Source: a virus (lineage: Duplodnaviria > Heunggongvirae > Uroviricota > Caudoviricetes). Taken from it: a stretch of 14,511 nt of DNA. Position numbers and translations under genes: made by a program. Location of the stretch: the IMG/VR virus record IMGVR_UViG_2579778535_000016, positions 1 to 14,511 of that record. One strand, given 5' to 3'. The notes below the pieces were generated by a model, which saw nothing but the letters and a program-made list of their open reading frames with translations, was not told the origin of the DNA and searched no databases. Positions 3,922 through 3,969 of this stretch are shown piece by piece. The stretch's first letter is position 1, and every line of letters begins with the position of its first letter.

Positions 3922-3969
3922 CAGAGGCAGAGGCAGAGGCAGAGGCAGAGGCAGAGGCAGAGGCAGAGG
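3922..3969. repeat. Perfect hexanucleotide tandem repeat (CAGAGG)x8, followed by a partial unit
   Basis: Read directly from the sequence; starts immediately after the mnt-like stop codon and ends about 50 bp upstream of the acyltransferase start codon. Confidence 0.95.

What the first reader, a model, noticed from the sequence alone, without database searches (positions are those of the whole stretch)
3922..3969. Perfect (CAGAGG)8 hexanucleotide tandem repeat just upstream of the acyltransferase gene
Eight perfect 6-bp units fill the gap between the mnt-like stop codon and the acyltransferase promoter region, about 50 bp before its ATG. Such arrays are prone to slipped-strand copy-number change and can alter promoter geometry or regulator binding, which would give phase-variable or tunable expression of a surface-modifying enzyme. 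SSR-driven switching is well known for LPS-modification genes in Haemophilus and Neisseria; this array could play a similar role here.
Basis: partly seen in the sequence, partly recalled or inferred. Interest (0 to 1): 0.6.

Follow-up and report, generated by a model that had tools for sequence, protein, structure and literature searches.

The report
Variable hexanucleotide repeat before prophage acyltransferase
A perfect (CAGAGG)8 repeat in an E. coli P22-like prophage really does change length between near-identical strains (6, 8 or 13 units), and it sits where the promoter's -35 box of a surface-sugar acyltransferase gene should be, but its geometry suggests fine-tuning or no effect, not an on/off switch.

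Summary
**Observation:** confirmed. There are 8.5 perfect CAGAGG units at 3922-3972. They start on the base after the TGA stop of an Arc/Mnt-type repressor gene and end 49-52 nt before the ATG of an Acyl_transf_3 gene.

**Copy number varies:** eight other E. coli assemblies carry the identical acyltransferase. Their flanks differ by 0-5 substitutions over about 6.1-6.9 kb, yet they hold 6, 8 or 13 units. Each of three flank haplotypes holds two alleles, so at least three independent changes occurred, with recurrence.

**Position:** the array sits exactly on a mosaic joint.
- On the left it replaces the right arm of a terminator hairpin that Salmonella relatives keep.
- On the right it replaces the -35 box and upstream part of a promoter ([G/A]TGACA-17-TGn-TAAnTT) conserved upstream of four divergent relatives of the acyltransferase. 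None of those relatives has a repeat.

**Likely effect:** because the array is periodic, the -35 position reads GAGGCA at any copy number. Promoter spacing and reading frame never change, and RNA folding shows no dependence on length. An on/off switch is therefore unlikely. A rheostat effect or neutrality is more likely, and expression was not testable here.

**Rating:** new member of a known kind; moderate interest.

The parts
3922..3972 (+). (CAGAGG)8 perfect hexanucleotide array plus a partial unit CAG. It is a hypermutable VNTR with 6, 8 or 13 units in other E. coli isolates.
   Evidence: TRF 100% matches; copy numbers in L001-L013; near-identical flanks, three haplotypes each with two alleles.
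3544..3921 (+). mnt-like repressor gene (Arc-family ribbon-helix-helix, 125 aa as called in other assemblies). Its TGA stop is at 3919-3921, immediately before the array.
   Evidence: Pfam Arc PF03869 E 3e-20. 41% identity over the RHH region to the annotated CUS-3 mnt. Divergent from an arc/ant-like operon, with a sub-threshold sar RNA match at 3187-3256.
3901..3921 (.). Truncated terminator: A-run, left hairpin arm AGCCCAC (3911-3917) and loop CTGA. The right arm GTGGGCT found in relatives is replaced by the array. This is the left mosaic joint.
   Evidence: Salmonella relatives L096-L102 read AAAAACAAAAAGCCCACCTGAGTGGGCT. Folds: relatives -17.6 kcal/mol, z -2.1, with a U-run on the minus strand; the window has lost it, z +0.75 and +0.94. 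Complete hairpins of the same type lie at 1699-1716 and 12780-12799.
3960..3965 (+). Inferred -35 position of the acyltransferase promoter. It reads GAGGCA, made of array units 7 and 8, and aligns with the conserved [G/A]TGACA of relatives.
   Evidence: Alignment and pattern search in L106, L107, L108 and L113. Inference by homology; the transcription start is not mapped.
3980..3988 (+). Inferred extended -10 element, TG-t-CACGTT, ending 33 nt before the ATG. It is homologous to TGn-TAA[A/G/C]TT of relatives, which ends 30-33 nt before their ATG. It is degenerate at two positions.
   Evidence: It is not called by the consensus promoter scan, so it is weak at best.
4022..5035 (+). Acyl_transf_3 (AT3) membrane acyltransferase, 337 aa. 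It is low-GC cargo (32-35% GC) and a putative O-antigen O-acetyltransferase for lysogenic conversion.
   Evidence: Pfam PF01757 E 7e-25. GC profile. Best phage relative is SfII OacD, 26.7% identity. All named cluster members are from E. coli.
5049..7283 (-). Tailspike with Tail_spike_N and a GDSL/SGNH esterase-like domain, convergent with the acyltransferase. Together they form a module conserved in Enterobacter and other contigs.
   Evidence: Pfam; L106, L107 and L113 have the same acyltransferase-tailspike pair; N-terminus matches solved tailspikes.
3474..3515 (.). Back-to-back promoter-like sites of the immI-type control region. The + strand site TTGCTA-18-CATAAT (3486-3515) lies before the mnt-like gene. 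The - strand site TTGACA-16-TAAATT (3501-3474) lies before the arc/ant-like operon. The + strand site is a possible source of read-through into the acyltransferase.
   Evidence: scan. A 32-nt inverted repeat at 3432-3463/3497-3528. No + strand terminator is predicted between 3921 and 4022.

Best explanation
The array is a hypermutable hexanucleotide VNTR sitting on a recombination joint of a mosaic P22-like E. coli prophage. An immI (arc/ant/mnt) module was joined there to an acyltransferase-tailspike lysogenic-conversion module.

**Shown**
- The array starts exactly where homology to mnt relatives ends. That point lies in the loop of a terminator hairpin, and the hairpin's right arm is lost.
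- The array ends where homology to the promoter of acyltransferase relatives begins.
- Its length changes recurrently, in whole units, between otherwise near-identical prophages. Slipped-strand mispairing is the inferred cause.

**Inferred**
- The array has replaced the -35 box and upstream region of the ancestral extended -10 promoter.
- The gene's own promoter is therefore weak: GAGGCA-17-TGtCACGTT.
- With the hairpin gone, the acyltransferase is probably also transcribed by read-through from the mnt promoter. In P22-type phages that promoter is active in lysogens (established knowledge of P22 immI).

**Expected consequence**
- The array is periodic and at least 36 bp long in every allele seen. 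Changing the unit number therefore alters neither the -35 sequence, the -35/-10 spacing, the UP-zone sequence nor any reading frame.
- It only moves and rotates far-upstream DNA, by about 206 degrees per unit, and lengthens an unstructured intercistronic RNA.
- I therefore expect copy-number changes to have a modest, graded effect on acyltransferase expression, or none. I do not expect an on/off switch.
For: - **Array:** perfect 8.5-unit array.
- **Copy numbers:** 6, 8 and 13 in eight other assemblies with the identical acyltransferase protein.
- **Flanks:** 0-5 substitutions per pair in 6.85 kb; L002 (6 units) and L004 (8 units) are identical.
- **Haplotypes:** each of three haplotypes carries two alleles, so at least 3 events with homoplasy.
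- **Left joint:** hairpin AGCCCAC-CTGA-GTGGGCT in Salmonella relatives, truncated in the window.
- **Right joint:** promoter [G/A]TGACA-17-TGn-TAAnTT, 30-33 nt before the ATG, in L106, L107, L108 and L113. The window's equivalent is TGtCACGTT at 33 nt, with the -35 position inside the array. None of the relatives has a tandem repeat there.
- **Insertion:** the immI module plus array is an insertion relative to the S24-acyltransferase or int-acyltransferase layouts of L106, L107 and L113.
- **Non-coding:** no + strand terminator between the genes, no ORF through the array, and a TAA at 3998-4000 closes the acyltransferase frame upstream.
- **RNA:** start-site accessibility is 0.40-0.54 with no trend for n = 0-16. 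The region is no more structured than shuffles, z +1.08.
Against: - No expression, transcription-start or within-culture data exist, so 'little effect' is an argument from geometry only.
- In H. pylori sabA, tract length next to the -35 changes output by rotating upstream elements (PMC4081817). An A-run (3901-3911) lies just upstream of the array, so a phasing effect cannot be excluded.
- The prophage relative CUS-3 uses a VNTR to switch an O-acetyltransferase in the same slot. This raises the prior that this array is selected.
- The array's perfect purity and survival in three haplotypes is compatible with selection as well as with high slippage.
- Only nine loci were seen, and four 6-unit loci look clonal.
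Confidence: 0.55

Rival explanations
1. The array is a true contingency locus. Slippage produces subpopulations with markedly different acyltransferase expression, and hence O-antigen acetylation, by a rheostat or multiphasic promoter mechanism. Selection would come from phages, including ones with esterase tailspikes, or from host immunity.
For: - Recurrent copy-number change.
- The array abuts or forms the -35 region.
- The gene modifies surface sugars and sits in the conversion slot.
- CUS-3 neuO is a VNTR-switched O-acetyltransferase in the same slot of a phage with a ~97% identical integrase.
- Tracts next to the -35 act as rheostats in H. pylori.
- The 6 and 13 alleles differ by 42 bp, about 4.0 helical turns (my arithmetic).
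Against: - Core promoter sequence and spacing are independent of n.
- All alleles are at least 36 bp, so the UP zone is always array sequence.
- The nearest upstream A-run is at about -80 to -125.
- Four apparently clonal isolates all have 6 units.
- No expression data exist.
Confidence: 0.2
2. The array acts at the RNA level. The acyltransferase is translated from an mnt-acyltransferase bicistronic mRNA. The purine-rich array, with one GAGG Shine-Dalgarno-like motif per unit, would act as a ribosome standby or retention platform, or feed the overlapping uORF at 3976-4128. Unit number would then tune translation.
For: - The genes are co-oriented, 100 nt apart, with the terminator hairpin lost and no + strand terminator.
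- The gene's own promoter is degenerate.
- Each unit contains GAGG. The last GAGG lies 6 nt before the ATG at 3976, which opens a 50-codon ORF overlapping the acyltransferase start.
- The acyltransferase's own SD is poor.
Against: - No predicted structural effect of n on the start region.
- No complementary pyrimidine-rich partner for an hmw-like hairpin.
- The spacing of the last unit to both start codons is independent of n.
- The idea is entirely inferential.
Confidence: 0.1
3. The array is a set of protein-recognition sites, not a slippage device. Candidates are iteron-like sites for a phage regulator, or eight same-orientation CAGAG sites for a StyLTI-like Type III methyltransferase whose methylation would affect the promoter.
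For: CAGAG is the StyLTI recognition sequence (PMC3874151). Every unit contains it, and the -35 position lies in the array.
Against: - No such enzyme or regulator was identified in the window.
- The operators of the immI region (3432-3528) are unrelated in sequence.
- The 6-bp period is too short for typical iterons.
- Relatives of both flanking modules lack the motif.
Confidence: 0.03
4. The copy-number differences are assembly artefacts of short-read data.
For: Most carrier assemblies are draft short-read assemblies.
Against: - Arrays of 36-78 bp are shorter than typical reads and sit in long contigs (54-444 kb).
- The same values recur in independent assemblies.
- All differences are whole units with perfect flanks.
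Confidence: 0.02

Closest known systems
neuO poly-psi VNTR of E. coli K1 prophage CUS-3 ('mobile contingency locus')
   Same: - Both are in a P22-like E. coli prophage. The window's integrase is 96.8% identical in DNA to CUS-3 int.
- The cargo slot is the same, between int/immI and the tailspike.
- The cargo is an O-acyltransferase for a surface polysaccharide, next to a tailspike that attacks a surface polysaccharide.
- A perfect short tandem repeat at the 5' side of the gene varies in copy number between isolates by slippage.
   Different: - The neuO repeat is a heptanucleotide inside the coding region, two nucleotides after the start codon. The gene is ON only when the copy number is a multiple of 3, and the repeat encodes RLKTQDS heptads that raise catalytic efficiency.
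- Here the unit is 6 bp and non-coding, ending 49-52 nt upstream of the ATG.
- NeuO is a left-handed beta-helix acetyltransferase. This protein is an AT3 membrane acyltransferase.
- neuO is co-oriented with the tailspike. This gene is convergent with it.
Promoter-adjacent SSR rheostats (H. pylori sabA T-tract)
   Same: Both are slippage-prone tracts located at or next to the -35 element. Length changes leave the core promoter intact but rotate upstream DNA relative to it.
   Different: - sabA has a homopolymeric T-tract with defined UP-like A-boxes close by, and its effect was shown experimentally.
- Here the unit is G/A-rich and 6 bp, and the array itself fills -35 to about -75/-115.
- No UP-like element lies within reach except an A-run at about -80 or further.
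- No expression data exist.
H. influenzae hmw1A/hmw2A (ATCTTTC)n 5'-UTR repeats
   Same: Both are non-coding tandem repeats of 6-7 bp upstream of a surface-protein or surface-modification gene. In both cases the repeat would be transcribed, here only if read-through occurs, and graded rather than on/off control is the expected mode.
   Different: The hmw mechanism needs a long hairpin between the repeats and a complementary G-rich region, processed by RNase III. Here there is no complementary partner, and the region is no more structured than shuffles.
Phage-borne AT3 O-antigen acetyltransferases (Sf6 OacA, SfII OacD, PhiV10 Oac) and phase-variable AT3 genes (H. influenzae oafA, Salmonella oafB)
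   Same: Both are AT3-only membrane acyltransferases carried next to int or the tailspike of a temperate phage. Phase-variable expression of AT3 genes is documented elsewhere (PMC9558356). The best phage hit here is SfII OacD.
   Different: - Identity to OacD is only 26.7%, and the substrate is unknown.
- The documented AT3 switches are epigenetic (oafB) or, to my own knowledge, coding-tract frameshifts (oafA). They are not non-coding hexanucleotide arrays at a promoter.
Hexanucleotide VNTR loci used for E. coli MLVA typing
   Same: Both are short-unit tandem repeats that vary between closely related E. coli strains and are often in or near prophage DNA (my own knowledge; not checked with a tool here).
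   Different: MLVA loci are used as neutral markers. This one sits on a promoter of a conversion gene. I found no paper mentioning a CAGAGG array in E. coli.

Membership tests
SSR contingency locus acting on transcription (promoter-associated) | Perfect simple-sequence tract long enough to slip | tested here: met
   8.5 perfect units, 51 bp.
SSR contingency locus acting on transcription (promoter-associated) | Tract length differs between closely related strains, with recurrent changes | tested here: met
   6, 8 and 13 units. Three flank haplotypes each carry two alleles, with 0-5 substitutions in 6.85 kb of flanks.
SSR contingency locus acting on transcription (promoter-associated) | Tract lies within or next to the core promoter of the regulated gene | tested here: inconclusive
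   By homology with a promoter conserved in four relatives, the -35 position falls inside the array. However, the window's own elements are weak, are not called by the scan, and the transcription start is unmapped.
SSR contingency locus acting on transcription (promoter-associated) | Tract length changes -35/-10 spacing or otherwise changes expression | not testable with these tools
   The spacing cannot change, because the array is upstream of the spacer. Expression needs reporter or RNA experiments.
SSR contingency locus acting on transcription (promoter-associated) | High-frequency reversible switching within a clonal population | not testable with these tools
   No read-level data. Four apparently clonal assemblies all have 6 units.
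neuO-type coding VNTR switch | Repeat inside the reading frame, with a unit length not divisible by 3, so that copy number shifts the frame | tested here: not met
   The unit is 6 bp. The array lies between a TGA (3919-3921) and the ATG (4022). A TAA at 3998-4000 closes the acyltransferase frame upstream, and no ORF runs through the array.
neuO-type coding VNTR switch | P22-like prophage, with the acyltransferase cargo in the int/tailspike slot | tested here: met
neuO-type coding VNTR switch | Left-handed beta-helix (hexapeptide) acetyltransferase | tested here: not met
   The only Pfam match is Acyl_transf_3.
hmw-type 5'-UTR repeat/RNase III hairpin | Repeats pair with a complementary region to form a long stable hairpin in the leader | tested here: not met
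   Fold z-score +1.08. No CCTCTG-like partner on the + strand nearby. No length-dependent structure.
P22 immI-type module (mnt / arc / ant) | RHH repressor genes flanking a divergent promoter region, with an antirepressor operon and a sar antisense RNA | tested here: met
   Arc-family domain in the 125-aa protein; P22_AR_C domain in the 134-aa protein. Back-to-back promoters and a 32-nt inverted repeat. The sar match is sub-threshold only, 21 bits against a cutoff of 43. 41% identity to CUS-3 mnt over the RHH region. Repressor function was not tested.
AT3 O-antigen acetyltransferase (lysogenic conversion) | AT3 (PF01757) membrane domain, encoded next to the tailspike/int of a temperate phage | tested here: met
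AT3 O-antigen acetyltransferase (lysogenic conversion) | Acetylates the host O-antigen and alters serotype or phage sensitivity | not testable with these tools
   Only 26.7% identity to OacD and no NCBIfam equivalog.

The most novel reading that the evidence does not exclude
P22-like prophages of E. coli may carry a second, mechanistically distinct kind of 'mobile contingency locus' besides neuO. In it, a non-coding hexanucleotide SSR was born at a module joint and supplies the -35 region of an AT3 O-antigen acetyltransferase promoter. Its length would tune, rheostat-like, how much the lysogen's O-antigen is acetylated. This would diversify susceptibility to phages, including relatives whose tailspike carries an esterase domain, and to antibodies within a clone.
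Probability: 0.2. Interest if true: 0.65.

Novelty: new member of a known kind. Interest (0 to 1): 0.45.

Why it matters
- **Rarity in E. coli:** to my knowledge E. coli is regarded as poor in SSR contingency loci. The one well-studied prophage case, neuO, affects virulence and phage resistance.
- **If functional:** a second repeat-bearing acyltransferase cargo in the same phage family and slot would suggest that temperate phages repeatedly equip their surface-modifying cargo with hypermutable tracts. That would matter for O-serotyping, vaccine antigens and phage therapy.
- **If neutral:** the locus is still a clean natural example of a microsatellite born exactly at a mosaic recombination joint. 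It destroyed a terminator and half a promoter, it is fast-evolving enough to serve as a strain marker, and it cautions that 'SSR near a surface gene' is not sufficient evidence for phase variation.

Tried and rejected
- **DNA searches for the module:** megablast of 3400-5100 found nothing in 50,697 phage records or in the RefSeq complete E. coli genomes. Carriers exist only among other assemblies.
- **Junction scans:** exact scans for the right junction in IMG/VR and JGI metagenomes, and for the left junction in JGI metagenomes, gave 0 hits.
- **Species-representative genomes:** they hold only acyltransferase relatives of 41% identity or less.
- **Consensus promoter scan:** no + strand sigma-70 site between the array and the ATG. 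The promoter assignment therefore rests on homology.
- **Sigma-54 motif:** I looked by eye for GG-N10-GC at the right flank. The spacing is wrong, so I rejected it (sequence).
- **RNA models:** length-dependent occlusion of the start site was rejected. An hmw-like long hairpin was rejected. Known RNA families gave only sub-threshold hits, and none on the array.
- **Coding role:** only a 28-aa minus-strand GTG ORF crosses the array.
- **Other (CAGAGG)n arrays:** those with at least 5 units in viral contigs are unrelated, and 50 of 58 lie in long open frames.
- **Literature:** no paper links CAGAGG repeats to bacteria or phase variation.
- **Sample size:** De-duplication in the look-up of encoding contigs hid about 20 further places.

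Full report
**1.

Tandem Repeats Finder reports a period-6 array at 3922-3972 with 8.5 copies, 100% matches and no indels, consensus CAGAGG. The sequence read shows eight full units (3922-3969) and a partial CAG.

The array begins on the base after the TGA stop (3919-3921) of a + strand gene. The next + strand gene starts at ATG 4022, 52 nt after the last full unit. A perfect 51-nt periodic run cannot be chance: the probability is about 4^-45 per position (my arithmetic).

**2. The neighbourhood**

The upstream gene (3544-3921, 125 aa as called in other assemblies) has an Arc-type ribbon-helix-helix domain. The downstream gene (4022-5035, 337 aa) is an Acyl_transf_3 membrane acyltransferase. 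The next gene (5049-7283, minus strand) is a tailspike with Tail_spike_N and a GDSL/SGNH esterase-like domain. The window opens with an IntS-type integrase.

The acyltransferase is strikingly AT-rich, at 32-35% GC against 46-57% elsewhere.

Several features make this a P22 immI-like module, so 'mnt-like' is a fair label:
- To the left of the mnt-like gene lies a divergent operon with a 57-aa protein and a P22 antirepressor C-terminal domain protein.
- Back-to-back promoter-like sites lie at 3474-3515.
- A 32-nt inverted repeat lies in the same region.
- A sub-threshold sar antisense-RNA match lies at 3187-3256.
- The protein is 41% identical to the annotated mnt of phage CUS-3 over the RHH region.

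All named copies of the acyltransferase, the mnt-like protein and the tailspike come from E. coli. E. coli genomes with the same intS backbone at argW usually read intS-(acyltransferase)-tailspike-immI. The slot next to the tailspike is therefore the normal place for a conversion gene.

**3. The array is hypermutable**

Contigs that encode exactly the same acyltransferase or mnt-like protein were fetched from eight other E. coli assemblies. Both immediate flanks are identical in all of them. The copy numbers are:

| Units | Assemblies |
|---|---|
| 6 | GCA_022410025, GCA_044693905, GCA_044078855, GCA_044149925, GCA_044162985 |
| 8 | the window, GCA_044149745, GCA_012074485 |
| 13 | GCA_900604085 |

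Outside the array these loci differ by 0-5 substitutions in about 6.85 kb. L002 (6 units) and L004 (8 units) are identical.

An alignment with the array masked gives three flank haplotypes, defined by four variable sites in about 6.1 kb:

| Haplotype | Array alleles |
|---|---|
| H1 | 8 and 13 |
| H2 | 8 and 6 |
| H3 | 6 and 8 |

At least three independent length changes are therefore needed, with recurrence of the same alleles, in the time it took to fix about five substitutions. All changes are whole units.

Two caveats apply. The sample is small, because the tool hides about 20 'similar places'. And four 6-unit loci look clonal, so the tract is not so unstable that every isolate differs.

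**4. The array sits exactly on a mosaic joint**

*Left side.* The closest mnt-like relatives are followed by unrelated genes: 93% identity in Citrobacter koseri and 77% in Salmonella.
- In the Salmonella loci the gene ends ...AAAAACAAAAAGCCCACCTGAGTGGGCT. This is a perfect 7-bp hairpin with the stop codon in its loop and a U-run on the minus strand. It folds at -17.6 kcal/mol, z -2.1.
- The window keeps the A-run, the left arm and the loop (3901-3921). The array then replaces the right arm, and the structure is lost (z +0.75 and +0.94).
- Complete hairpins of the same type occur at 1699-1716 and 12780-12799.

*Right side.* Relatives of the acyltransferase at 58-72% identity were found and their contexts fetched.
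- Enterobacter asburiae L106 and contig L107 read S24/umuD-like gene, then acyltransferase, then tailspike.
- L113 reads int, then acyltransferase, then a GDSL tailspike.
- L108-110 are chromosomal.
- None has a tandem repeat upstream.
- Four of the five contexts share [G/A]TGACA-17 nt-TGn-TAA[A/G/C]TT, with the -10 element ending 30-33 nt before the true ATG. This is phylogenetic-footprint evidence for an extended -10 promoter.

In the window the homologous element is TG-t-CACGTT (3980-3988), ending 33 nt before the ATG. The -35 position, 17 nt upstream, is 3960-3965. It reads GAGGCA and is made of array units 7 and 8.

The S24 gene, its LexA box and the following hairpin align between the window and L106, and homology then stops. 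Relative to those layouts, the immI module plus the array is an insertion between that hairpin and the promoter spacer.

**5. What this implies for mechanism**

*Shown.* The array is non-coding.
- A TAA at 3998-4000 closes the acyltransferase frame upstream of the ATG.
- Only a 28-aa minus-strand ORF crosses the array.

*Inferred from the anatomy.*
- The tract is periodic, so the -35 hexamer is GAGGCA at any copy number.
- The -35/-10 spacer is outside the array and cannot change.
- All observed alleles (36-78 bp) fill the whole zone where UP elements act.
- The nearest distinctive upstream DNA, the A-run at 3901-3911, lies roughly 80-125 bp upstream of the transcription start.
- The window's own -35 and -10 are both degraded relative to the conserved consensus, and the consensus scan calls no + strand promoter there.

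*Read-through.* No + strand terminator is predicted between the two genes, and the ancestral hairpin is broken. Read-through from the mnt promoter is therefore plausible. In P22-type phages that promoter is active in lysogens (established knowledge). Read-through would express a conversion gene in the lysogen.

*RNA.* Folding constructs with 0-16 units shows no trend in accessibility of the start region, which stays at 0.40-0.54. The 301-nt region is no more structured than shuffles (z +1.08). No pyrimidine-rich partner exists for the purine-rich array.

*Conclusion.* I conclude that the existence of the array probably matters, because it removed a terminator arm and half a promoter. Its length variation most likely has a modest graded effect, or none. 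An on/off switch is unlikely. This is an argument from geometry; no expression data could be obtained.

**6. Comparison with what is known**

- **neuO of CUS-3.**
  - CUS-3 is a P22-like E. coli K1 prophage whose integrase DNA is 96.8% identical to the window's.
  - Its record reads attL-int-neuO-endosialidase tailspike-ant-mnt, with '19 copies of heptanucleotide repeat AAGACTC' at the 5' end of neuO.
  - That VNTR lies two nucleotides after the start codon. The gene is ON only when the copy number is a multiple of three, and copy numbers of 2-93 are seen (PMC3046976).
  - The present locus shares the phage family, the slot, the type of cargo and slippage.
  - It fails the defining features of the neuO mechanism: the repeat is not coding and the unit length is divisible by 3. 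The enzyme is also of a different fold family.
- **H. pylori sabA.** Tracts next to the -35 that act as rheostats are the closest model for how this array could work (PMC4081817).
- **H. influenzae hmw.** Its 5'-UTR repeats need a long hairpin that is absent here (PMC12721329).
- **AT3 acyltransferases.** Phage-borne AT3 O-antigen acetyltransferases and phase-variable AT3 genes are well documented (PMC9558356). The best phage relative here is SfII OacD, at only 26.7% identity.
- **Literature.** I found no paper on a CAGAGG array in bacteria.

**7. Verdict**

Hypermutability and promoter association are now backed by data. Phase-variable expression is not supported, and the anatomy argues against it.
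- Novelty: it is a new member of a known kind, a promoter-associated SSR/VNTR next to a prophage surface-modification gene. Its origin exactly at a recombination joint is unusually well documented.
- Interest is moderate (0.45).
- The most novel reading not excluded is a second, non-coding type of mobile contingency locus in P22-like E. coli prophages. I give it about 0.2 probability.

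Noticed in passing
window 5049-7283 (-) with 4022-5035 (+); L106, L107, L113: The acyltransferase and a convergent tailspike travel together as a module in E. coli, Enterobacter asburiae and two unnamed contigs. In the E. coli and L113 versions the tailspike carries a GDSL/SGNH esterase-like domain. A phage whose tailspike may remove acyl groups carries a gene that adds them, which is an odd pairing worth a look. The tailspike N-terminus matches solved tailspikes, including 4qnl.
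   Followed up: partly
window 1639-1658, upstream of the minus-strand S24 gene 1232-1621: A LexA-box-like palindrome, TACTGTATTTATGTACAGTA, lies in front of a 129-aa S24-peptidase (umuD-like) gene. Both are conserved in L106 and L107, where umuC-like (IMS) genes follow in L107. This looks like an SOS-regulated umuD-like cargo at the prophage end.
   Followed up: partly
window 1699-1716, 3911-3921, 12780-12799: AGCCCACC occurs three times, against 0.26 expected. Two copies are complete AGCCCAC...GTGGGCT-type hairpins, and the third is the truncated one at the array. The same terminator type closes the mnt-like gene in Salmonella phages. Module joints seem to coincide with these hairpins.
   Followed up: partly
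window 7300-12300: The prophage looks degraded or heavily mosaic. The terminase large subunit (10162-11634) lies only about 3 kb from the tailspike. Matches to Enterobacter phage ENT1 cover 7729-13453 in six pieces that span 14 kb in the phage. Other E. coli carriers have an 833- or 562-aa gene next to the tailspike where the window has a 200-aa ORF (7340-7942). Identity to those carriers drops beyond about 7300 (176 differences in 4 kb).
   Followed up: no
window 3976-4128 (+): A 50-codon ORF starts at ATG 3976, with the last array unit's GAGG 6 nt upstream as a well-spaced Shine-Dalgarno-like motif. It overlaps the acyltransferase start (4022) in another frame. It would be present only on read-through transcripts. 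It could interfere with or couple to acyltransferase translation.
   Followed up: no
window 3187-3256 (+): There is a sub-threshold match to Rfam sar RNA (21 bits against a gathering score of 43, E 0.26). It lies antisense to the junction of the 57-aa arc-like gene and the next gene, the position where P22 sar acts.
   Followed up: no
window 3922-3969: Every unit contains CAGAG, the recognition sequence of the Type III enzyme StyLTI (PMC3874151). There are eight sites, all in one orientation, which Type III enzymes, to my knowledge, do not cleave. No such enzyme was looked for in carrier genomes.
   Followed up: partly
window 4000-4028 (-): A promoter-like site on the minus strand (TTCTCA-17-TATATT, 9 of 12) sits over the acyltransferase start. 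It would send antisense transcription through the array toward the remnant U-run of the old terminator.
   Followed up: no
L005/L012 (GCA_044693905.1), tailspike region: In one carrier the tailspike is split into 496-aa and 188-aa products by a 1-nt indel, so the module is decaying in some isolates while the acyltransferase stays intact.
   Followed up: no
L037-L093 (IMG/VR contigs): 57 unrelated viral contigs, many of them giant-virus MAGs, carry (CAGAGG) arrays of 5-14 units. 50 of 58 arrays lie in open frames of at least 150 codons, so elsewhere this unit mostly encodes dipeptide repeats.
   Followed up: partly
L108-L110 (Pseudescherichia and related): The 58%-identical relative of the acyltransferase is chromosomal. 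It is followed by a second AT3 gene and a fimbrial operon with no phage genes nearby, yet it keeps the same promoter motif. This may hint at the source of the phage cargo.
   Followed up: no
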